NCBI GenBank assembly: GCA_963739835.1
Contig: CAVUBW010000016.1
Location: 30,285-94,284 of the forward strand
DNA length: 64,000 bases
Reading direction: 5' to 3'
From: an uncultured Acidimicrobiales bacterium
GTDB taxonomy: Bacteria; Actinomycetota; Acidimicrobiia; Acidimicrobiales; VFJN01
Shown here piece by piece: positions 42,559 to 60,681 of the stretch. The notes beneath the pieces are model-generated. The model was not told the origin of the DNA. It searched no databases and saw nothing but the letters and a program-made list of their open reading frames with translations. Made by a program: the position numbers and the translations under genes. Position 1 is the stretch's first letter; every line of letters begins with the position of its first letter.

Positions 42559-43314
42559 GTGTCCGTGCGGTGGTTGGCGCGGGGTGTGCACGACGTGCCC
42601 GAGTCCGCCGACTGGTTGTCGCCCGCCGAGTCGGCGCGGCTGTCCGTGCTCCGGTTCGCCAAGCGGCGCAGCGAGATGCGTCTGGCCCGCTGGACCGCCA
42701 AGGAGGCCATCGCCCGCGCGCTCGACCTGGACACCGACGCCGGCACCTTCGCCCGGATCGAGATCCGCCCCGCCTCGACGGGTGCACCGACGGCCTTCCT
42801 GGGCGACGAGCGGGCACCGGTCGCCGTCTCGCTGAGCGATCGGGCGGATTGGGCGGTGTGCGTGGTGGCGCCGGCGGACCTCGGCGTCGGGTGCGACCTC
42901 GAGATCGTCGAGCCCCGCACCGACAGGTTCGTGCGCGACTGGTTCACGCCCGCCGAGCGGGACCTGGTCTTCGGGGCCGACCCGGGGGAGGCGCGCCACC
43001 TGCTCGCCAACCTGGTGTGGTCGGCCAAGGAGAGCGCGCTCAAGGTGCTCCAGACGGGCCTGCGGCGCGACACCCGCTCGGTCGAGGTCGACGTGGTCGA
43101 CCCCGAGGGCGACCGGCGCTGGGCCAGGCTCGTCGTGCGCACCGAGGAGGGCGCCGCGTTCCCCGCCTGGTGGCGGCGCTACGGGGACTTCGTGCTCACC
43201 TTCGCCGCCGACTTCGCCGAAGATCTCGACCGCGGTCCGCCCCGCACCTTGGAGGAGCCGCCGCGCCTCGCCGGAGCCACGCCGTCACATTCGTGGTTGT
43301 CCGACCCGACCTGA
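42559..43314 (+). CDS. 4'-phosphopantetheinyl transferase (Sfp-type)
   Basis: RWTAKEA, SLSDR, GCDLEIVEPR, WSAKESALK; GGAGG RBS. Confidence 0.88.
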   Translation: MSVRWLARGVHDVPESADWLSPAESARLSVLRFAKRRSEMRLARWTAKEAIARALDLDTDAGTFARIEIRPASTGAPTAFLGDERAPVAVSLSDRADWAVCVVAPADLGVGCDLEIVEPRTDRFVRDWFTPAERDLVFGADPGEARHLLANLVWSAKESALKVLQTGLRRDTRSVEVDVVDPEGDRRWARLVVRTEEGAAFPAWWRRYGDFVLTFAADFAEDLDRGPPRTLEEPPRLAGATPSHSWLSDPT

Positions 43315-44715
43315 GCCGGGGCCGGCTCGGCCGGGCTGCCGCCGGCCAACCGCAGGAGCACCCCGACGGCGGCTTCGATGCCGCCGGCGAGGACGCCGAT
43401 GTCGGGGGCCGTGTCGTAGTCGCCGGTGATCCCGAAGCGGACCTCGCCGTTGTAGGACAGGATGGCCACGCCGATGCGCACGCCGCCTCCGATCGGGACG
43501 AATGGGATGTACTCGAGCATCTCCAGACCCGCGATGTAGAGCGGGAACTGCGGCCCGGGGACGTTCGTGGTCACGGTGTTCATCGTGCGCTGGGACACCC
43601 GGGACGCCAGCCGGGACGCCAGGCGCGTGGCCTGGGCGGTGACGGTCGGCGGCACGATGCCGACGAGGGTGGTGAGCGCGACGCCGGCCTCGGTCTCGTG
43701 CGACTGCTTGAGGCGATCCATCTCCTCGTGGACCGCAGCCATGCGCTGCGAGCGGATCGTCGAGGTGCACGGGCAGGTCGAGGAAGATCGCCGAGCACGC
43801 GGTTGTCGAAGACGCCGTGGCCGGTCTCGTCGCGCACGGACACGGGGACGAGCGTGCGCAGCGCCACGTGGGCCGGGTCCTCGCCCCGGGCCAGGATGAG
43901 GTCGCGGAAGCCGCTGGTGATGGCGGCCAGCACGACGTCGTTGACCGTCCCGCCGAGCGTGTGGCGGATCGTACGGATGTCGGCGAGGGTCGTGCCGGCG
44001 TAGGTCCACCGCCGGTGGCGCCCGATCGTCCCGTCCAGGGAGGTGGGTGGCGTCGCCCGCAACGCCGAGCCATAGCCGAGCAGCCCCGTGCCGATGGTGG
44101 CGCCCCGTCCCAGCGCCCAGCGGGGCGCGCGCATCGCCGTCCACGCCGCCCGCACGGCCTGGCGGGGGCTGGTGACGAGGCTGCGGGCACCGTCGAGCGC
44201 CAGTTGCAGGCCCGACGGCTCGGCGGCCGGCTCCCAGTCGTCCGCGACGGCGGGCGCCGCGGTGCGCTCGTGATCGAGCACGACCGAGATGAGGTCCACG
44301 CCCGCGATGCCGTCGATCATGCTGTGGTGGATCTTGCTGACGAGCGCCCACCGCCCGCCGGCGAGGCCCTCGACCATCCATGCCTCCCACAGAGGGCGGG
44401 CCCGGTCGAGCGGCTGGGACATCAGCCGGCCCATGAGCCGGCAGAGGTCCGCCTGGTCGCCGGGGGGCGGCAATGCCGTGTGCCGCACGTGGTACTCGAC
44501 GTCGAAGTGCGGGTCGTCGGCCCACACCGGGCGACCGATGTCCAGCGGCACGAACCGGACGCGCTGCCGGTAGCGTGGGACGAGCGGCAGCTTCGACGCG
44601 AACAGTGCGATCACCGAGTCGTAGGCGGGTGCCGGTCCCTCGAACACCGAGCACGACGCGACGTGCATGTGCGTGGTCCCGTTCTCCAGGTAGAGGAACT
44701 CTGCGTCGAGCGGGT

Positions 44716-44728
<13 letters not shown>
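43179..44728 (-). CDS. Wax ester synthase/diacylglycerol acyltransferase (frameshifts near 43750-43800)
   Basis: MDRLNPLDAEFLYLE, MHV, LDRARPLWE, HHSMIDG, TVNDV, TNVPGP, ILSYNG. Confidence 0.92.
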
Positions 44729-50317
<5,589 letters not shown>

Positions 50318-50366: not shown

Positions 50367-53300
50367 TCAGGCCATGGCCTCGGCCAGCGGGATCTGCCGC
50401 TCGGGGTCGACGGCCCCGGGCAGCGCGACGGTCCGGTAGCCCTGCACCTCGACCAGGACGGCGCCGCCCTCGTCGACGACCCGGCCGCCGAACCCGCCGT
50501 CGAGCGCCTCCACGAGCGCTTCCACACGACCGTGCGGCGAGTCCAGCGCCGGGTGGAACACGATGCGGTCGACGTGCTGCGGCAGGCCGAACCGCCCCTC
50601 GCGACCGATCTCCCAGATCCCCGCCGTCTGGAAGAACAGCTCGATCAGGCGCGGCGACGCGAGCTCCGGCCGGTCGGCCGGCACGTGGTCGCTGGGCAGG
50701 CCCGTCGCGTACAGGCCCACGGGGCCCTGGTCGCCGCGCCACGCCCGCTCGAGCACGCGGAAGGCTGGACCGTGGAAGTAGACGCCGTAGATGGCGTCGG
50801 CGGTCGTGCCCTTGCCGTCCGGCGACGGGGGCGGAGGCGCGGGGGCCTCGGCCCCGAGCGGCGCCCGCGCCAGGCGCACCCGGCCCGTGAAGTGGACGGT
50901 CACCTGCGGATCCGGTTGGTTGGCCAGTTGCCGGCGCCCGACCAGCCGGCAGTCGGCGACCATCTGGTCGTCCTCCCGCCGGAAGGTGGCGGTGATCTCC
51001 AGCGTGCGCGGCTCGTGCCGGTAGAACTTGCAGGGCGCCAGGAACTCCACGTCCTCGACACCGACGACACGCCATCCGGGCAGCGGCAGCGCCGCCACCT
51101 CGGCGAACGCCTCGATCCCCATGACGCCGGGCAGCACCGGCGTGCCCTCGATCTCGTGGTCGCCGAGGAAGGGCTGCTCCGCCGGGTCGAGCGTGGTCTC
51201 GACGACCAGCCCGCCGTGGACGCCCATCGCGGTGACCCGGCCGACCATCGGTCCGGTCGGCCCGGTTGCGAAGCGGGCCGGATCGATGCCGCCGCCCTCG
51301 GCCCGTTCCTCGGCCATCATGCCGAGCCGTCCGGCGACGACGACCTCGCCGCGGGTGGCCCCGGCGGTCAGCTCCCGCCGGATCGTCGGGATGCCCACCT
51401 CCGGCGGCAGCATCTCGATCCCCGCCAGCTCCATCACCTTGGGGATGGAGCCGCGGGCGGCCATGCCGATGCCGGCCCACGCCGTCCAGTCGACGACGAT
51501 GGCCCGCGTGTCGGGCCGGGTCGTGCGCATCGCCGACGCCAGCTTGCACAGCAGGTCGTTCGCGGCGCTGTAGTCGGTCTGGCCGACGTTGCCGAACCGG
51601 CCGGCGACGGAGCTGAAGGCGACGGTGGCGCCGAGCGGCAGGTAACCGATCGCCGACATCAGGTTGAACCAGCCGTCGCTCTTGACCCCGAACACGAGGT
51701 CGTACTCGCGCGGCTCCTTGTCGGGCAGGGCGTGGCTGATGTCGAGACCGGCCGCGTGCAGCAGCACGTCGATCCGGCCGTGGCGGGCGGCCACGTCGCC
51801 GACCACGCGGGCGACCGCGTCGCCGTCGGTCAGGTCGACGCTGTGGTAGTGGGCCTCACCGCCGGCCGCCCGCACGGCGTCGATCGCCGACCGTGCGGCC
51901 GCGAGCCGTTCGAGCCGCGCCAGCTCCCGTTCGACCATCACGGGCGTCGGTCGCTCGCCCGCGGTGCGCAGCCGGGCGATCAGGTCGGTCTTGAGCCCCT
52001 CCCTGTCGCTGGCGAAGCGCCGGATGTCCGGATCGTCGGCGTCGGGCTCCGGAACCAGGTCGAGCAGGTGGAAGGTGCCACCGGAGGCGCCCGCCAGGTC
52101 CTGCGGTGATGGCCGAGACGATGCTGCCGGCGGCCCCGGTCACGACGAACACCGTGTCGGGGCCGAGGACCATGCCCTCGCCCGGCCCGGTGGTGGCGGG
52201 TCGCTCGTCGAGCGTGACCGTCCACCGCAGCCCGTCCGCGTGGCCGACCTCGACGGCCCCCGGGTCGCCGAGCGCCTCCGCCACGAGCAGGTCGGCGACG
52301 TCGTCGGGCCGGTCGGCCGGCCCCACGTCGACCGCCTTCACCAGCGGTTCGGGCCGCTCACGGGCGAAGGCCTTGGCGAACCCGGTCACCGCGCCCCCGA
52401 GCGGGGCGTGGGCGCCGGCGTCGTCGTAGCCGTGGCGGCCCCCGAGGCGGGTCGCGGTCAGGAGGAAGGTGCCCGGCCGCGAGATCTGCTCGTACAGCCG
52501 CCGCATGGTGGCGTACAGCAGCTTGACCCGCACCCGGTTCGCCTCCCGCCAGGCGGCGAGGTCCATGCGGCCGAGGTCACCCTCGTGCGTCGAGGGCGGC
52601 GAGCCAGTAGACCCCGTGGATCGGACCGGCGGCCAGCCAGCCGTCGATGCGGGCGACCAGTGCCGCCGCGTCGGGCTCGTCGTCGACCGCGAGCACCTCG
52701 ACGCCGCGTGCGGTCAGCCTCTCGGCCAGTGCTGCGCCGACGCCGCCGCGGTCGCACCCGACGACGACCCGCGTCCCCGCAGCGAGGTCGACGCCGGTCG
52801 GCGCACAGCGGTCGAGCGGCGGGCGGATGGTGGCAACCGGCACCCGCCGCGGCATCCGATCGGCGGCCGAGACGTCCGGGACCGCGACGGGAGGCACGGT
52901 CGGGGAGGCGACGGCGGCGATCGGGCGGCGGGTGCCGGGGCGAGGTCCGGATCGGGGATGCGGTCGCGGACGAAGGCGATGACGTGGGCGAGGGTGGGGT
53001 AGTCGCGCAGCTTGAGCTTGTCGTCGCGTTCGATGCCGAAGCGTTCGCGGATCTGGGCGAACACCTCGGCTTGTTTGACGGTGTCGATGCCGAGGTCGGC
53101 TTCGAGGTCGAGGTCGAGGTCGAGCAGGTCGGCGGGGTAGCCGGTCTTGTCGGCCACCACCGCGACCACCTCGGCCTCCACGTCGGGCGGCCTCGATGTC
53201 GGGGGCCGTCTCGGCGGGGGCTGCCGGCCCCGGCTCCGGCGCCGCCGGGGAGGTGGTGGACGCCGGAGCCGGAGCGCGGTCGCGGACGAAGGCGATGACG

Positions 53301-56300
53301 TGGGCGAGGGTGGGGTAGTCGCGCAGCTTGAGCTTGTCGTCGCGTTCGATGCCGAAGCGTTCGCGGATCGGGGCGAAGACCTCGGCTTGTTTGACGGTGT
53401 CGATGCCGAGGTCGGCTTCGAGGTCGAGGTCGAGGTCGAGCAGGTCGGCGGGGTAGCCGGTCTTGTCGGCCACCACCGCGACCACCTCGGCCTCCACGTC
53501 GGGCGCCTCGAGTCGGGGGCCGTCTCGGCGGGGGCTGCCGGCCCCGGCTCCGGCGCCGCCGGGGCAGGTGGTGGACGCCGGAGCCGGGAGCGCGGTCGCG
53601 GACGAAGGCGATGACGTGGGCGAGGGTGGGGTAGTCGCGCAGCTTGAGCTTGTCGTCGCGTTCGATGCCGAAGCGTTCGCGGATCTGCGGCGAACACCTC
53701 GGCTTGTTTGACGGTGTCGATGCCGAGGTCGGCTTCGAGGTCGAGGTCGAGGTCGAGCAGGTCGGCGGGGTAGCCGGTCTTGTCGGCCACCACCGCGACC
53801 ACCTCGGCCTCCACGTCGGGCGGCCTCGATGTCGGGGGCCGTCTCGGCGGGGGCTGCCGGCCCCGGCTCCGGCGCCGCCGGCGGAGGTGGTGGACGCCGG
53901 AGCCGGGAGCGCGGTCGCGGACGAAGGCGATGACGTGGGCGAGGGTGGGGTAGTCGCGCAGCTTGAGCTTGTCGTCGCGTTCGATGTCGAAGCGTTCGCG
54001 GATCTGGGCGAAGACCTCGGCTTGTTTGACGGTGTCGATGCCGAGGTCGGCTTCGAGGTCGAGGTCGAGGTCGAGCAGGTCGGCGGGGTAGCCGGTCTTG
54101 TCGGCCACCACCGCGACCACCTCGGCCTCCACGTCGGGGGCCTCGATGTCGGCTGCCTCGATGTCGGCTGCCTCGATGTCGGGGGCCTCGCACGTCGGGG
54201 GCCTCCACGTCGGGCGAGGTCGCCGCCGGTATCACCACCGGCTCCGGCTCCGGCTCCGACTCCAACTCGGGCTCGGCCTCCAAGGCGGCCACCTCCGGCG
54301 CGTGCGGCCGGCTGGCCGGCTCCTCGTCGACCACCCGTAGCCGCCGGTGGTCGACCTCGAGGCGGGCGTCGGCCGTGCCGCTGATCGTCGCCAGCCACCG
54401 CTGCCAGGCCGCCGGGTCGACGATGCGGTACGCGAAGCCGAGCTCGCTCGGGCTCGCGGTGCAACCCGTCCGGGACGGGCGTCCAGCGCAGGAGGATCAT
54501 GCTGATCTGCGAGCCGAACCCGGCGGCCAGCCGCAGCGCGTAGCGGACCGGGTAGGCGCCGCCGAGCGAGAGGTTCAGCGATCCGAGGGAGGGGTCGATC
54601 TCCTTGAAGTTCGGCACCGGCGGGACGATCCCGGTCTCCAGCGCCTTGACGGCGACCACGTCCTCGATGCCGACGCCCATCGGGTGGCCGGTGAACCCCT
54701 TGGTGTTGGCGATGACCACCTCGTCGGCCTCGGCGCCGAACACGGCGCGCAGGGCGCTGATCTCGGCCTGGGCGCTGCCCCCCCGGGCCGGCGTGTAGGT
54801 CTCGTGGGACACGAACACCGTCTCGGGCGCCATGGCGCGACGCTCGACCCCGCGGGCCTCCGCCCGGGCGACGAGGCTCTCCATGACCGCCGAGATGTGG
54901 TCGACGTCGAGCTTGGTGCCGTGGAAGGCGCTGTTGGCGGTGACCGAGGCCAGCACCTCGCAGATCGGCTGAACGCCGCGCTCCCGCGCTGCGGCGGCCG
55001 ACTCGACGACGATGCCGGCGGCGCCCATTCCCGAGCAGCATCCCGTGGCGGCGGTTGTCGAACGGGACGGCGGCGTCCTCGACGACCTCGTCGGTGGCGG
55101 CGGCGCCCGTCGCCAGGAAGCCGGCGCCCATCCACTCGAGGAGCGAGTCGGACGTCACGTCGTCGGCGGCGACGATCACGACCCGCCGGCAGCGGCCGGC
55201 GCGGATCCAGTCCTCGGCCAGGCCGATCGCCTGGGTGGTGCTGGCGCAGGCCGAGTTGATCTGCGTGTTCGGCCCCCGCGCGCCGATGATCTCGGCGAAC
55301 TGGGAGTGGCCCATCGACAGGATCCGGAACAGGAAGCGCCGGTCGAACTCGAACGGCTCCGCCTCGATCGCGGCCTCGAGCTCGCCGATGCGCCGGTCGA
55401 TCTCGGCGGCGGCCCCGTCGCCGTCGAGACGGGCGCGGACGGCGAGCAGCGCGTCGAGCTCGCTGGTGGCGGACGCGGTCGGCGACGTAGCGCTCGATGT
55501 CCCGCGGCGAACTCCCCGTAGCCGGGGAAGGCGGAGGCGAAGATCACGCCGGTGTCGTCGCGCAGCGCGTCGGGCAGGCCCCACCGGTCGGGGAGCTGCG
55601 TTCCGAGCGTGGTCGTCTTGTAGCGCATCACCAGCGGGATGCCGGCGTCGCGCAGCGCGTCGAAGCCGGCGCCGATGGCCAGCCGGGTGCAGCCGTCGAG
55701 CGCCCTGTCGCGGTCGGGATCGACCCCGAACTCGTCGACCAGGTCGAGCGCGCCGGCGCGGCCCGCCAGCTTGATGACGTCGTCCGGGCTGTCGATGGCG
55801 TCGAACCGTGCCCCGCCGTCGCTCTTCACCAGGCGGGTGATGTGCTTGTCGACCATGGCCTGCCGCAGCGACGGCGGGATCGTGCCGATGAACTGCTCGC
55901 CCGCCGAGGATGCGGGCCACGTTGGCGTCGTCGAAGACCCGCTCGGTGCCCGGGAGGCCGAGCGCCGCGCCCGTGATCACCACGGGCTCCGGGGGAGCGG
56001 CCTCCGCCGATCGCGGTGCAGCCGCGGGTGCAGGTGCGGAGGCCTCCCACACGGAGCGGCTGCGGTCGAGGAAGTCGGCCAGCATGTGCCCGAGCTCGCG
56101 GTAGCGGTCGTCCGGCATCGTTTCGACCGCGGGGACCGGGACGCCCGGCAAGTCGCCCGCCACCGGAGCGGCGGGGGTCGCCACGGCGGGCGCGCCGAGG
56201 CCGGCGGCGTAGAGCCCGCACAGCGCCTGGTTGAACGAGACAGCGTCCCCCTGCTTGGGGTGGTTGGTGAACAGGGCGACCACGTCGTCGTGCTGCCGCC

Positions 56301-59016
56301 CGAGCACGTCCTCGACGAAGCCGTGGAGCGCCTTCTTCGGCCCGACCTCGACGAACACCCGCGCTCCCTCGGCGTACAGGGTGTGGAGGCCCTTCACGAA
56401 CTGGACCGGCGAGGCCACCTGGCGGGCGAGGATGTCGAGCATCTGCCCCTGCGCGTCCGGGCCCATCGGGTAGAGCTCGCCGTCGACGTTGGCGACGACG
56501 GGAAGCGTCGGCGGGCAGAGGTCGAGCCGGGCCAGCGTCTGCCGCAGCGGCTCGCTGGCGGGGGCGACGATCGAGGTGTGGAAGGCGTGGCTGACCGGCA
56601 GCCGGATGACGGCGTGACCGCCCTCGGTGAAGGCAGCGACGGCCGCCTCGACCGCGGCGGTGGCGCCGCCGATCACCGCCTGGCTGGGGCTGTTGACGTT
56701 GGCGACGACCACGTAGCCGTCGATCGAGGCGACGACCCGCTCGATCTCGTCGAGCGGCGCGAGGACGGCCGCCATCGCGCCGTTGTCCTCCATCGACAGG
56801 TTGGCCATCTCGCTGCCCCGGGCGCTGACCGCCTCGAGGGCGGCCGCGAACGACAGCGCACCGGCGGCGACCAGCGCGCCGTACTCACCGAGGCTGTGGC
56901 CCATCACCATGTCGGGCGCGATGCCGTAGGCGGCGAGCAGGCGAGTGAGCGCGATGTCGGTCGCCAGCACCGCGGGCTGGGTGATCTCGGTCTGGAGGAG
57001 CTGCTGCTCGAGCTGGGCCACCGCGGCGGGATCGCCGTCGTCGATGAAGATGAAATCGGACAGCGGCTTGCCCAGCAGCGGTGCCATCACCCGGTCGGCC
57101 TCGGCGAAGGTGTCCGCGACCACGGGCTCCGTCCCGCGGAGCGTCGCGCAGCATGTTGACGTACTGCGAGCCCTGCCCGGTGTAGAGGAAGGCGACCTTG
57201 CCCGGCCGCCCCCGCCCGAGGAAGACGCCCCGGGCACGCAGGGCGCGCCACACCGCCGCCTCGCCCCGCTCGATCGCCTCGACCGCCCGGCCCGCCTTGT
57301 CGGCCAGCTCGGCGGCGTCGCCGTAGTCGATGGCGACCCGCACCGGCGCGCCGAGGTCGGCGGCCTGGGGCGGGGCCGGCGCGGGAACCTCGCCGCGGCG
57401 GCGCGCTCGGCGATGTCCCGCAGGCGGCGGTCGAGGTCGGCGTCGTCGTCGGCGCCGGTGACCAGCGCCCCGCGGCCCGGGGCCGTGGGGATGGCCGGCC
57501 CTGCTGCCGCGGGAGCGCCGACGCCCGAGGTGGCCGGTACGTCCACGTCGGCGAACGAGACCTGGGCGGTCCCCTCACCGCCGTGACGTCCGGGCATGTA
57601 CTCCTCCAGCACGCCGTGGAAGTTCGTGCCGCCGAAGCCGAAGGCGCTCACGCCCGCGCGGCGGATCCCGCCGGGCGGCGCGTCCCAGGGCCGCAGCTCG
57701 GTGTTGACGGCGAACGGCGAGTGGGCGAAGTCGATGTTCGGGTTCGGCCGCTCGACGTGGATGCTGGCGGGCAGGACCTTGTGGTGGAGGGCCATCGTCG
57801 CCTTGAACAGCCCGGCCGTGCCGGCCGCGCCCTTCAGGTGGCCGATGTTCGACTTCACCGAGCCGAGCGGGATCGAGCCGACGGGCACACCGTCGGCCCC
57901 GAACACGTCGGTCAGGGCCTCGACCTCGACCACGTCGCCCACGGCGGTCGACGTGCCGTGCCCCTCGACCAGCGAGCACGTCGACGGGGCCACGCCCGCC
58001 AGCTTCCAGGCCCGCTCGACCGCGAGCCGCTGGCCGACGGGATTGGGGGCGGTGATGCCCTTGCCCCGGCCGTCGCTCGACCCGGCCATGCCGAGGAGCA
58101 CCGCGTAGATGCGGTCGCCGTCGCGCTCGGCGTCGGCCAGCCGCTTGAGCAGGAACAAGGTCCCGCCCTCGCCCATGACGAAGCCGTCGGCGCCGTCGGC
58201 GTAGGGGCGGGTACCGGTGGCCGACAGCGCGCCGATCTTGCAGAACTTCACGAAGGTGGCGGCGCCCATGTTGCGGTCGATGCCGCCGGTGAGGACCGCG
58301 TCGTACTCGTGGTTGACCAGCCCCTCGACCGATGCCGCCATCGCCGCGAGCCCGGAGGCGCAGGCGGCGTCGGTGACGTAGTTCGGCCCGCGGAGGTCGA
58401 ACAGGTTGGCGACCCGGCCGGCGATGACGTTGGCCAGCTCGCCCGGCATGGTGTCCTCGGTGATGGCCGGCAGGGAGGCCCGCATGCCGTCGGGCGGTCT
58501 CGTCGAGGATCGTCTCCCGTTGCTCCTTGGGCAGGGCGGCGAACGTCGTCGAGCGCTCGAGCTCCTGGACGAACTCGGGGAAGTTGACCCGCAGCGCGGT
58601 CAGGTAGTGCCGCTCGCCCGCCATGGCGTTGCCGATCACGACCGCGGTGCGCTCGGTGTCGAGCGGGCGTTCGGGCCAGCCGTAGTCGATCAGGGCGGCC
58701 CGGGCCAGGTGACCGCCCACTTCTGGGCGTCGTCCATGGCGTCGCTCACCCGGGGCGGGATCGGGGAGCTTCCAGCCGAGCGGATCCCACTCGAAGGCGC
58801 GGACCCAGCCGCCGATCTTCGAGTAGGTCTTGTCGGTCGCGCTGCGGGTCGGGGTCGTAGTAGAGCGCCGGGTCCCAGCGGTCCGGCGTCGACATCGCTG
58901 ATCGAGTAGCGGCCGTCCTGGATGTTCTGCCAGAAGGCCGCCGCGTCGGGGGCGTCGGGCATGATGGCGGCGACCCCGACGATCGCCACGGCCCGGTCGG
59001 CGGCTGCGTCCTTCAT
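50367..59016 (-). CDS. Iterative type I PKS/FAS, KS-AT-KS-(ACP)4-KR-DH (many frameshifts)
   Basis: KS1 DAACAS/HGTST/IGHLK; AT GHSLG and HAFH; KS2 NSACAS/SHETYT/TGHPMG; [13 protein letters not shown] x4; KR TGAAGSI and DYSAAN; [14 protein letters not shown]. Confidence 0.85.
52961..54135 (-). repeat. Four near-identical tandem ACP-coding repeats of about 317 bp
   Basis: Units start at about 52961, 53277, 53593 and 53912. Confidence 0.92.
54125..54214 (-). repeat. 15-bp tandem repeat x6 in the PKS linker
   Basis: GCCTCSAYGTCGGSK units encoding (A/P)D(I/V)EA. Confidence 0.8.
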
Positions 59017-60681
59017 GACCGTCCTCCTGAACGCCCGTAGACGGCGTCGGCGACGGCGTCCATGTCCTCGATGGCGCCGCCTCGGCGGCGATGACGTCGT
59101 GGATGCGCAGCGCGGTCTCCAGCGTCGGGCACGGGGTCGTCGCCGCCCGCCCCCCGCACGAGCCGCAGGCCGCCCCACGCCACCCGGTCGGCGGCCTCAC
59201 GGGCGAACACGCGGGCGAGGGCGGCCAGCCCGGCGGCGTCGAACCGGGCGTCGGCCTTCGGGCCCAGCGTGCCGTCGCCGGCCGCGGCCGCCCGGCGGAC
59301 CAGCGCCTCGGCGCACTCGGCGTAGGCGATCAGCTCGCCCAGCCGGAGCAGCACGTGCTGGTGCCGGGTCAGGCGCCCGGTGCGGCACCGCTCGAGCACC
59401 TCCGCCAGGGCGTGCAGCGCCAGCGCGGCGGTCCGGGCCCCGATGCCGGGGTGGGAGGCGTCGAGCGCCTCGAGCGCGTCGGCCCGGTCGTGGTAGTAGC
59501 GGCCCCGGGTCTTCAGGTGCTCCTGCCAGCGGTCGCGGGCGATCGTCATCTCCATGATCTCGGAGGTGCCCTCGTAGATCGTGGTGATCCGGACGTCGCG
59601 CTTGATCTTCTCGACCAGGTACTCCCGCGTGTAGCCGTAGCCGCCGTGGGCCTGGATGGCGGCCTCCGCGGCCGCGTTGCCGGCCTCGGTGGCCAGGTAC
59701 TTGGCGATCGCGCCCTCGGTGTTGAGGCTGCCCTCGCCGGCGTCGATCCGCTCGGCGGTCTCCTCGATGTAGGCGCGGGCGGCCTCCAGCCGGGCGGCGT
59801 GGGGGACGATCAGCTTGTGCGTGTAGCCCTGCTTCTCCGACAGCGGCCCGCCGGCCTGGATGCGCTCGGTCGAGTAGGCGATCACCCGGTCGAGCGCCGA
59901 CCACCCGGCGCCCAGCCCGAACGCGGCGACCATCAGGCGCGTGTAGCCGAACACCTGCTGGGCCTGGAGCAGGCCCTGGCCCTCGACGCCTCCGACCAGC
60001 GCGTCGAGCTCGACCGGCACGTCGTCGAGGTAGAGCGCGGCGGTGTTGCTGAGCCGGATGCCGTGCTTGTCCTCGGGCTTGGCCTGCGTGAAGCCCTCGG
60101 CGCCGCGCTCGACGACGAACCAGCTCGGCCCGCCCGGGGCAGTTCGCCAGGATCGTGTAGGCGTCGGCGATCCCGCCGTTGCTGATCCACTGCTTGCGCC
60201 CGTTGAGGCGGTAGCCGACCACGCGCCCGTCCTGCTCGACGGGCGCGGCGGTCGTCTTGCAGCGCGCCGAGGTCGCTGCCCGCCTCGGGCTCGGTCGCGC
60301 CGTAGGCGAACAGGAGGCCCTCGTCGGCGATCCGGGTGAGCCACAGCTTCTTCTGGTCGTCGGTCGCGCCCACCGAGATCGGGTCGCTGCCGAGGAACGG
60401 TGGCGAGCACGCTCGTCGCCACCCCGAGGTCGATGGACGCCATCTTCTCGCAGACCCGGTACACGTCGAGGCAGCCGCCGCCCATGCCGCCGTACTCCTC
60501 GGGAACGAACAGGAGGTGGATGCCCAGGTCGTCGCCGCACATCTTGCGGACCAGGTCGACGGGGCATTCGTCGTCGCGATCGAGCTGCAGCACGCAGCTC
60601 GGCGGGCAGGTGGCGGTCGGCGAACTCCTGGATCGCCTCCAGGGTCATCTCCAGGACGTCGGCGTCGAGACCCTTCATCAC
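59013..60681 (-). CDS. Acyl-CoA dehydrogenase family protein with C-terminal extension (frameshifted)
   Basis: [48 protein letters not shown]; ATGA overlap with the PKS start. Confidence 0.9.

What the first reader, a model, noticed from the sequence alone, without database searches (positions are those of the whole stretch)
52961..54135. All four ACP domains have Thr (GIDT) where the phosphopantetheine Ser should be
Seen: every copy reads [15 protein letters not shown] (codon ACC), while PfaA-type ACPs read DLGIDSIKRVE. No other ACP is visible in the cluster, yet KS, AT, KR and DH motifs are intact and a dedicated PPTase is adjacent. Inference: either threonine phosphopantetheinylation by a specialised PPTase, or non-canonical carriers. 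Caveat: the copies are homogenised, so they are not four independent observations.
Basis: partly seen in the sequence, partly recalled or inferred. Interest (0 to 1): 0.8.

Follow-up and report, generated by a model that had tools for sequence, protein, structure and literature searches.

The report
Carrier domains with threonine attachment site
A lipid-synthase gene carries four acyl carrier domains that have threonine where all textbook carriers have the cofactor-bearing serine, and this threonine is conserved across a large, multi-phylum enzyme family that nearly always sits beside its own cofactor-attaching enzyme.

Summary
On the minus strand, four 97%-alike ACP copies (54135-52960) each read [11 protein letters not shown] with Thr (ACC) aligned exactly to the phosphopantetheine Ser of solved ACPs. 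It is not an error or a homogenised oddity. Thr was found in 546/546 ACP copies of the 120 best homologues and in 276/276 copies in 80 genomic loci from more than 10 phyla. In a sample chosen by the neighbouring KS domain, so blind to the ACP motif, it was found in 317 of 338 ACP domains. The 12 Ser copies lie in lineages nested inside Thr clades. All four Thr codons are used.

The gene is KS-AT-KS-ACPn-KR-DH, matching the uncharacterised "Type R" secondary lipid synthase of Shulse and Allen 2011, not a true PfaA. An Sfp-type PPTase lies downstream in 31 of 33 loci with enough flank.

Best reading: Thr is the phosphopantetheine attachment site (inferred, untested). E. coli ACP S36T is reported as unmodifiable. 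Ten full-text searches found no report of Thr phosphopantetheinylation.

The window copy is frame-broken, most likely by assembly indels.

The parts
52960..54135 (-). Array of four tandem ACP (PP-binding) domains: copies at 54135-53911, 53817-53592 (1-base insertion), 53500-53276 and 53184-52960
54031..54033 (-). Thr codon ACC at the canonical Ppant site, copy 1. The same codon is at 53713-53715, 53396-53398 and 53080-53082 in copies 2-4
   Evidence: alignment to solved ACPs
50367..59100 (-). KS1-AT-KS2-ACP4-KR-DH synthase gene ('Type R'-like). The 5' end is approximate. Here it is split over several reading frames
   Evidence: intact orthologue P0122
42559..43311 (+). Sfp-type 4'-phosphopantetheinyl transferase, convergent with the synthase operon. 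Motifs GCDLE and WSAKESALK are present; SLSD replaces the usual SxSH
44764..50317 (-). Fused acyl-CoA carboxylase (biotin carboxylase, BCCP, carboxyltransferase), with three frame changes in this copy
43368..44719 (-). Wax ester synthase/diacylglycerol acyltransferase. The catalytic and C-terminal domains are in different frames here
59016..60644 (-). Acyl-CoA dehydrogenase-family gene directly upstream of the synthase. This is a conserved partner of the synthase across phyla

Best explanation
The four domains are genuine acyl carrier domains of an iterative KS-AT-KS-ACPn-KR-DH lipid synthase. In this family the nucleophile for 4'-phosphopantetheine is the hydroxyl of Thr35 ([11 protein letters not shown]) rather than Ser.

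Proposed steps, all inferred:
1. The cluster's own Sfp-type PPTase transfers phosphopantetheine from CoA onto Thr35 of every ACP copy.
2. The AT loads malonyl units, supplied by the co-encoded fused carboxylase.
3. The two Cys-His-His ketosynthases extend the chain, and KR and DH process it.
4. The conserved upstream acyl-CoA-dehydrogenase-like protein may supply the missing enoyl reduction or a desaturation.
5. In this lineage a WS/DGAT may esterify the product.

Shown: the sequence facts, the fold prediction, family-wide conservation of Thr, PPTase linkage, and Thr-to-Ser switches within the family. Not shown: the modification itself, and why Thr is preferred. Possible reasons are insulation from housekeeping PPTases or ACP phosphodiesterases, or a more stable phosphodiester. 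These are speculation.

The frame breaks in this copy are most probably 1-base assembly errors, not decay of the gene.
For: 1. Site identity. Thr aligns with the Ppant Ser of solved ACPs. The AF2 model has pLDDT 91.4 with helices at 2-14, 35-49 and 65-75, so Thr35 caps helix II. Foldseek matches E. coli-type ACPs and AntF at TM 0.83-0.89.

2. No alternative nucleophile. The 81-aa domain has no Ser and no Cys. Across 43 domains from many phyla, T35 is invariant within D30 L31 G32 x D34 T35 V36 K37 Q38 A39 E40.

3. Family-wide conservation.
- 120 of 120 best homologues carry only Thr, in 546 of 546 copies.
- 80 of 80 genomic loci carry only Thr, in 276 of 276 copies.
- The codons used are ACG 143, ACC 121, ACA 7 and ACT 5, so synonymous change is tolerated while the residue is kept.

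4. Sample blind to the ACP motif. 150 representatives were found with the KS2 domain.
- By regex: 116 Thr-only, 3 Ser-only, 1 mixed and 30 without an ACP region.
- By HMM: 338 ACP domains in 123 proteins, with site residue T 317, S 12, truncated 5 and other 4.

5. Ser and Thr interchange at the same site. In a KS2 tree rooted on KS1 paralogues, P0263 (Ser), P0174 (Ser) and P0219 (mixed S, T, S) each sit inside 100%-supported groups of Thr-bearing proteins. A hydroxyl at this position therefore seems to be what is required.

6. PPTase linkage.
- A homologue lies downstream in 59 of 80 loci.
- It is present in 31 of 33 loci with at least 9.5 kb downstream and in 57 of 65 with at least 4.5 kb.
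- It is on the same strand in 57 of 59.
- Catalytic motifs are intact.
- In same-genus genomes the orthologous PPTase (70-80% identity) was found in 5 relatives (G006, G016, G020, G021, G023); three of them (G006, G020, G021) also gave a Thr-type ACP match.
- In those relatives the Ser-type pfa-like cluster has a different PPTase, about 35% identical, beside it.

7. Every other carrier protein found in this genome has Ser, including a second pfa-like array (ELSIDSIKRIE).

8. The frame breaks are probably errors.
- An intact orthologue exists in G006.
- The carboxylase is also broken.
- Genome completeness is 63% in 28 contigs.
- At all four frame-change points inside 54350-56100 (about 55898, 55506, 55463 and 55028), contigs of four metagenome runs lack one base relative to the window.
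Against: - There is no experimental evidence here or in the literature searched that any PPTase modifies Thr.
- The standard reference case goes the other way: E. coli ACP(S36T) is described as unable to receive 4'-PP and as non-functional (PMC3340395, passages read).
- The linked PPTases show only ordinary Sfp-type catalytic residues. No obvious active-site change would accommodate the extra methyl group.
- The homologue sets were selected by ACP similarity, and one of the six search patterns contained the Thr motif, so those two counts are biased. The KS2-based sample is not.
- The contigs laid are mostly 90-99% alike. They come from relatives, not this strain, so real frameshifts in this organism are not excluded.
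Confidence: 0.7

Rival explanations
1. The Thr domains are never phosphopantetheinylated. They are structural or scaffolding ACP-like repeats, and the synthase uses a free-standing Ser-type ACP in trans.
For: E. coli ACP S36T is reported as unmodifiable. The genome has ordinary Ser-type ACPs elsewhere. A few family members carry extra degenerate ACP-like domains with D, Q, G or P at the site.
Against: The whole PPTase-recognition motif DLGxDT and helix II are invariant across phyla, which unused scaffolds would not need. Copy number varies from 1 to 6, as in PUFA synthases. A PPTase is linked in 31 of 33 well-flanked loci. Switches to Ser occur at the same site. No Ser-type ACP lies in the window, and 109 of 123 family proteins have only Thr-type domains.
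Confidence: 0.1
2. Thr35 carries a different group, or the acyl chain directly as an oxoester, so the chemistry is not thioester-based.
For: Only the oddity of Thr itself. No call gives positive support.
Against: KS1 and KS2 keep the Cys-His-His triad, in 98, 98 and 100 of 100 KS2 sequences. AT, KR and DH motifs are standard. All of these act on pantetheine-tethered thioesters in every studied relative (established knowledge of FAS and PKS enzymes). The linked enzyme is an Sfp-type PPTase with CoA/Mg motifs.
Confidence: 0.07
3. In this particular organism the cluster is a decaying pseudogene, so the Thr has no current function here.
For: There are at least 6 frame changes in the synthase and 3 in the carboxylase, plus a 1-base insertion in ACP copy 2.
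Against: Breaks hit several unrelated genes, and genome completeness is only 63% despite 28 large contigs. The breaks are single extra bases that are absent from related contigs at the same places. Between the breaks the sequence is 70-84% identical to an intact orthologue, with all motifs kept. Even if this reading were true, it would not touch the family-wide finding.
Confidence: 0.1
4. The Thr codon is a sequencing or assembly artefact repeated in identical contexts.
For: The assembly is indel-prone and the four copies share their context.
Against: Independent genomes and metagenomes from more than 10 phyla have Thr at the site, with four different codons.
Confidence: 0.01

Closest known systems
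'Type R' secondary lipid synthase cluster (Shulse and Allen 2011, PMC3098273; passages read)
   Same: The paper describes one pfaA homologue with KS-MAT-CLF-ACP(3-6)-KR followed by a PPTase gene. In Koribacter an ACC gene lies between them. It reports the cluster in Acidobacteria, Elusimicrobia and Chloroflexi. Here I see KS-AT-KS-ACP(1-6)-KR-DH, a downstream PPTase, ACC in between in 22 of 33 loci, and the same phyla among the 80 loci.
   Different: The main text of the paper contains neither 'threonine' nor 'serine', so the Thr site is not noted there. The domain it calls CLF keeps the active-site Cys here. The conserved upstream acyl-CoA dehydrogenase is not mentioned in the passages I read. 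I did not check the paper's own genomes directly, so identity with Type R is inferred from architecture and taxa. The product is unknown.
PfaA of PUFA synthases (NCBIfam TIGR02813) and its tandem ACPs
   Same: Both have tandem ACP arrays between AT and KR-DH. PfaA is the best NCBIfam match for the protein and for the single ACP. The ACP is 42-52% identical to a Ser-type pfa-like array in this genome and its same-genus relatives.
   Different: The score is 395 bits against a cut-off of 1010. An additional KS lies between AT and the ACPs. I saw no PfaB, PfaC or PfaD partners in the Pfam scan of 35.7-64 kb. The site is Thr, not Ser.
E. coli ACP S36T mutant
   Same: It has the same residue change at the same structural position.
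   Different: The engineered mutant is described as not modifiable by 4'-PP and as non-functional (PMC3340395, passages read). It is used as an apo mimic (PMC13343975, passages read). Here Thr is the naturally selected state of a large family.
Sfp-type PPTases (Pfam PF01648)
   Same: The window protein has two ACPS-like halves in about 250 aa and the motifs GxDxE and WxxKExxxK.
   Different: No solved structure matches by sequence at E <= 0.01. A GLRxDTR motif is conserved in the linked clade. In 10 of 60 linked PPTases, including the window's, Asp replaces the His of SxSH. Arg36, Arg37 and Asp171 differ from the six PPTases that sit beside Ser-type clusters in the same genus. That is a small sample of closely related sequences, so it is a lead only.

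Membership tests
Acyl/peptidyl carrier protein (Pfam PP-binding, PF00550) | Profile match above the curated cut-off | tested here: met
   64 bits for the array against a cut-off of 20.8. The genome search hits three of the four copies at 29-34 bits.
Acyl/peptidyl carrier protein (Pfam PP-binding, PF00550) | Helical-bundle ACP fold with the attachment residue at the N-terminus of helix II | tested here: met
   AF2 pLDDT 91.4, with helix II starting at residue 35. Foldseek TM 0.83-0.89 to solved ACPs.
Acyl/peptidyl carrier protein (Pfam PP-binding, PF00550) | Conserved Ser as the phosphopantetheine attachment residue | tested here: not met
   Thr is at the aligned position in all four copies and in 317 of 338 family domains.
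Acyl/peptidyl carrier protein (Pfam PP-binding, PF00550) | Covalent 4'-phosphopantetheine on the domain | not testable with these tools
   This needs mass spectrometry of the expressed protein.
PfaA, polyketide-type PUFA synthase (TIGR02813) | Score above the curated cut-off | tested here: not met
   395.2 bits against 1010.1 for the intact orthologue P0122, which lacks KS1 because of a contig end.
PfaA, polyketide-type PUFA synthase (TIGR02813) | Architecture KS-MAT-ACPn-KR-DH with pfaB, pfaC and pfaD partners | tested here: not met
   An extra KS lies between AT and the ACPs. The Pfam scan of ORFs in 35.7-64 kb shows ACAD, ACC, WS/DGAT and PPTase but no PfaC- or PfaD-like genes.
'Type R' secondary lipid synthase (Shulse and Allen 2011) | Single pfaA homologue with KS-MAT-(second KS/CLF)-ACP(3-6)-KR | tested here: met
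   The second KS keeps Cys-His-His, so the label 'CLF' does not fit.
'Type R' secondary lipid synthase (Shulse and Allen 2011) | Downstream PPTase gene, sometimes with ACC in between | tested here: met
   In the window, ACC and then the PPTase follow the synthase. Across loci with enough flank, the PPTase is present in 31 of 33 and ACC in 22 of 33.
'Type R' secondary lipid synthase (Shulse and Allen 2011) | Orthology to the paper's own clusters (Koribacter, Solibacter, Roseiflexus, Elusimicrobium) | not tested
   Those genomes were not examined by name. Loci from the same phyla are in the set.
Sfp-type PPTase (PF01648) | ACPS profile match and catalytic acidic and lysine motifs | tested here: met
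   74 bits against a cut-off of 25, in two stretches. GCDLE and WSAKESALK are conserved.

The most novel reading that the evidence does not exclude
O-(4'-phosphopantetheinyl)-threonine is a natural, ancient post-translational modification. It is used by a family of lipid synthases spread over more than ten bacterial phyla. A co-evolved PPTase installs it, forming a carrier/PPTase pair insulated from the cell's Ser-based ACP machinery. That would overturn the rule that carrier proteins need an invariant serine.
Probability: 0.6. Interest if true: 0.88.

Novelty: new variant of a known kind. Interest (0 to 1): 0.8.

Why it matters
Carrier proteins of fatty-acid, polyketide and non-ribosomal peptide synthesis are defined by a serine that bears phosphopantetheine. 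Ser-to-Thr mutants are used as dead controls. A large natural family that has fixed Thr at that site would have several consequences if the Thr is modified:
- It would add a new protein modification.
- It would show that PPTase chemistry is broader than assumed.
- It would offer a naturally orthogonal carrier/PPTase pair for pathway engineering.
- It would warn that motif-based annotation may mislabel these domains as inactive.

The family is common in Acidobacteriota, Actinomycetota, Chloroflexota, Myxococcota, Gemmatimonadota and Elusimicrobiota, among others. Its lipid product is still unknown. The test is simple and cheap.

Tried and rejected
**Literature.** Ten full-text searches found no report of Thr phosphopantetheinylation, of a GIDT or DTVKQ carrier motif, or of follow-up work on Type R clusters. 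Subscription journals are largely outside that library. The PPTase review I asked for by id was not held. Supplements were not consulted.

- Pfam PF27202, listed among precomputed domains of many homologues, is not in the local library. I do not know what it models.

**Searches that gave little.**
- PPTase against solved structures by sequence: no match at E <= 0.01.
- T-linked against S-linked PPTases: only R36, R37 and D171 differ consistently. The Ser-linked set is six same-genus sequences, too few to name a specificity determinant.

**Steps not taken.**
- I did not run complex prediction. A PPTase-carrier pair would tend to pass by likeness to solved complexes and would not tell Thr from Ser.
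The Thr codon in this strain therefore rests on the assembly plus homologues.

**Reading rejected.** I considered that the Thr is a systematic base-calling error in identical contexts. The homologues rule this out.


Full report
**What is in the window**

The feature lies on the minus strand of a 73% G+C genome (5.66 Mb, 28 contigs). Tandem Repeats Finder reports a 316-bp unit repeated 3.8 times at 97% identity over 52960-54152.

A script places four ACP copies at 54135-53911, 53817-53592, 53500-53276 and 53184-52960. Each reads [15 protein letters not shown]. The Thr codon is ACC, at 54031-54033, 53713-53715, 53396-53398 and 53080-53082.

- Pfam PP-binding matches the array.
- phmmer alignments to solved carriers put the Thr opposite the phosphopantetheine Ser of the PigH ACPs and of S. 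aureus ACP.
- The 81-residue domain (P0001) contains no Ser and no Cys.
- An AlphaFold2 model built on 43 homologous domains has mean pLDDT 91.4, with helices at 2-14, 35-49 and 65-75. Thr35 therefore caps helix II, as the Ser does in ordinary ACPs.
- Foldseek finds E. coli-type ACPs and AntF at TM 0.83-0.89.

**State of the gene in this window**

The synthase is not in one frame. tblastn with an intact same-genus orthologue (P0122 from G006, 2148 aa, cut at a contig end) shows at least six frame changes across 50370-57516. The neighbouring carboxylase has three. ACP copy 2 has one extra base.

Several results point to assembly indels:
- The genome scores only 63% complete despite its large contigs.
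- Contigs of four metagenome runs were laid on 54350-58350. They are mostly 90-99% alike, so they come from relatives.
- Those contigs lack exactly one base at 55898, 55504-55506, 55463 and 55028. These are the four places where tblastn changes frame in that stretch. They also lack one base at 57143 and 54456.

I therefore read the breaks as assembly indels. Without accurate reads of this strain that remains an inference.

**What the gene is**

The domain order is KS-AT-KS-ACPn-KR-DH.
- The best NCBIfam model is PfaA, at 395 bits against a cut-off of 1010.
- The extra KS keeps Cys-His-His in 98, 98 and 100 of 100 family sequences.
- On the same strand, an acyl-CoA dehydrogenase gene lies upstream. 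A fused biotin carboxylase-BCCP-carboxyltransferase and a WS/DGAT lie downstream. An Sfp-type PPTase converges on the operon at 42559-43311.

This matches the 'Type R' secondary lipid synthase cluster of Shulse and Allen 2011. They describe KS-MAT-CLF-ACP(3-6)-KR plus a downstream PPTase, with ACC in between in Koribacter, found in Acidobacteria, Elusimicrobia and Chloroflexi. The product is uncharacterised (PMC3098273, passages read). The main text of that paper has no occurrence of 'threonine' or 'serine'.

**Is the Thr a family trait?**

- *Best homologues by ACP similarity.* Of 3056 database proteins matching the ACP, the 120 best all carry only Thr, in 546 of 546 motif copies.
- *Genomic loci.* A scan of species-representative genomes gave 369 confirmed relatives. 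The 80 best loci come from Actinomycetota, Acidobacteriota, Chloroflexota, Myxococcota, Gemmatimonadota, Elusimicrobiota, Bacteroidota, Calditrichota, KSB1, Spirochaetota and Proteobacteria. They have 276 of 276 copies with Thr, at 1-6 copies per locus.
- *Bias.* Both sets were selected by ACP similarity, and one of the six search patterns contained the motif.
- *Sample blind to the ACP.* I therefore searched 1.84 billion representatives with the KS2 domain alone. This gave 709 hits at E <= 1e-30, with the best 150 returned.
  - By regex: 116 Thr-only, 3 Ser-only, 1 mixed and 30 fragments without ACPs, or 316 Thr against 10 Ser copies.
  - With an HMM built from the 43-domain alignment: 338 ACP domains in 123 proteins, with T 317, S 12, truncated 5 and other residues 4.
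- *Codons.* All four Thr codons occur among the 276 locus copies.
- *Tree.* I built a KS2 tree of 84 rows plus six KS1 paralogues as outgroup. I dropped 66 of the 150 for a KS2 match under 400 positions or for having no ACP motif; P0230 was among those dropped. In the tree, the Ser-bearing P0263 and P0174 and the mixed P0219 each fall inside 100%-supported groups of Thr-bearing proteins.

Thr is therefore the ancestral and strongly preferred state. Ser has reappeared a few times at the same site. That pattern is what one expects if the hydroxyl is the functional group.

**The PPTase**

- A homologue of the window's PPTase lies downstream of the ACPs in 59 of 80 loci.
- It is present in 31 of 33 loci with at least 9.5 kb of downstream sequence and in 57 of 65 with at least 4.5 kb.
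- It is on the same strand in 57 of 59.
- It sits either about 2.5-3 kb or about 8.3 kb after the last ACP. The difference is the carboxylase, which is present in 22 of 33 well-flanked loci.
- The upstream acyl-CoA dehydrogenase is present in 47 of 50 loci with at least 9 kb upstream. WS/DGAT is present in 1 of 80.
- The linked PPTases keep GxDxE and WxxKExxxK and share a GLRxDTR motif. In 10 of 60, including the window's, Asp replaces the His of SxSH.

In the window's genus, the orthologous PPTase (70-80% identity) was found in 5 of 24 relatives: G006, G016, G020, G021 and G023.
- A Thr-type ACP was found in G006, G011, G020 and G021, so three relatives have both.
- In G011 the ACP match sits at a contig end, and in G016 the PPTase lies near one. 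In G023 the PPTase lies on a 10.5-kb contig and no Thr-type ACP match was found.
- In those relatives the genus's Ser-type pfa-like cluster has a different PPTase, about 35% identical, a few kb downstream of its own ACPs.

In this genome every other carrier found has Ser. That includes a second pfa-like array reading ELSIDSIKRIE. There are three PPTase loci in all.

**Interpretation**

The most economical reading is that Thr35 receives phosphopantetheine from the cluster PPTase. I put this at about 0.7.

Against it:
- The E. coli S36T mutant is described as unmodifiable and non-functional (PMC3340395, passages read) and is used as an apo mimic (PMC13343975, passages read).
- No active-site change is visible in the linked PPTases.

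The rivals are apo scaffolds with a trans ACP, a different adduct or oxoester chemistry, a pseudogene in this strain, and a sequencing artefact. They are weighed in their own sections. The artefact reading is refuted by the homologues.

**Novelty**

Ten full-text searches found no report of a Thr attachment site in carrier proteins or of this motif. The library lacks most subscription journals, so prior notice cannot be excluded.

I class this as a new variant of a known kind: a carrier-protein family with Thr at the attachment site, inside an already catalogued but uncharacterised cluster type. It should use an error-free orthologue rather than this window's copy.

Noticed in passing
window 43300-64000 (synthase, ACC, WS/DGAT, ACAD, PFOR): Many genes are split by single-base frame changes, and the genome scores only 63% complete in 28 contigs. 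Related contigs lack one base at the break points. The assembly looks indel-prone.
   Followed up: partly
window 59016-60644 (-); 80 related loci: An acyl-CoA dehydrogenase-family gene sits directly upstream of the synthase on the same strand in 47 of 50 loci with enough upstream flank. The synthase has no ER domain, so this may be its reductase or desaturase partner. The passages of the 2011 Type R description that I read do not mention it.
   Followed up: partly
window about 54300-55900 (-); orthologue P0122 residues 520-1060: The second KS, called CLF in the 2011 paper, keeps the Cys-His-His triad in 98, 98 and 100 of 100 family sequences. It looks like an active ketosynthase, not a chain-length factor.
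   Followed up: yes
window 44764-50317 (-): A single-polypeptide carboxylase (biotin carboxylase, BCCP, carboxyltransferase; about 1860 aa in the intact orthologue) lies between the synthase and the PPTase here and in 22 of 33 well-flanked loci.
   Followed up: partly
window 43368-44719 (-): A WS/DGAT gene follows the carboxylase here but was found in only 1 of 80 related loci. This is a lineage-specific addition, hinting at wax-ester or triacylglycerol products in this genus.
   Followed up: partly
G000 contig C24:613234-613693 (outside the window): The same genome holds a second pfa-like tandem ACP array with the ordinary Ser motif (ELSIDSIKRIE). In same-genus genomes that cluster has its own PPTase, about 35% identical, a few kb downstream.
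   Followed up: partly
window 42559-43311 (+), residue 94: The PPTase reads SLSD where 49 of 60 linked PPTases have SxSH. Asp occurs in 10 of 60, all with Actinomycetota-type sequences (SMTDRADWAV and similar).
   Followed up: partly
representatives P0164, P0166, P0172, P0176, P0174 (KS2 sample): One clade carries an extra, degenerate ACP-like domain after the array, with Q, D, G or S at the site and a diverged helix II.
   Followed up: no
G000 contigs C22:209379-212807 and C17:273073-276516: There are two full-length rpoB matches above the family cut-off, in 1252-aa and 1234-aa open frames. This is either a paralogue pair or two organisms in one bin.
   Followed up: no
window 54123-54214: A 15-bp unit repeated about six times lies just upstream of the first ACP. 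It encodes a short repeated linker peptide.
   Followed up: no
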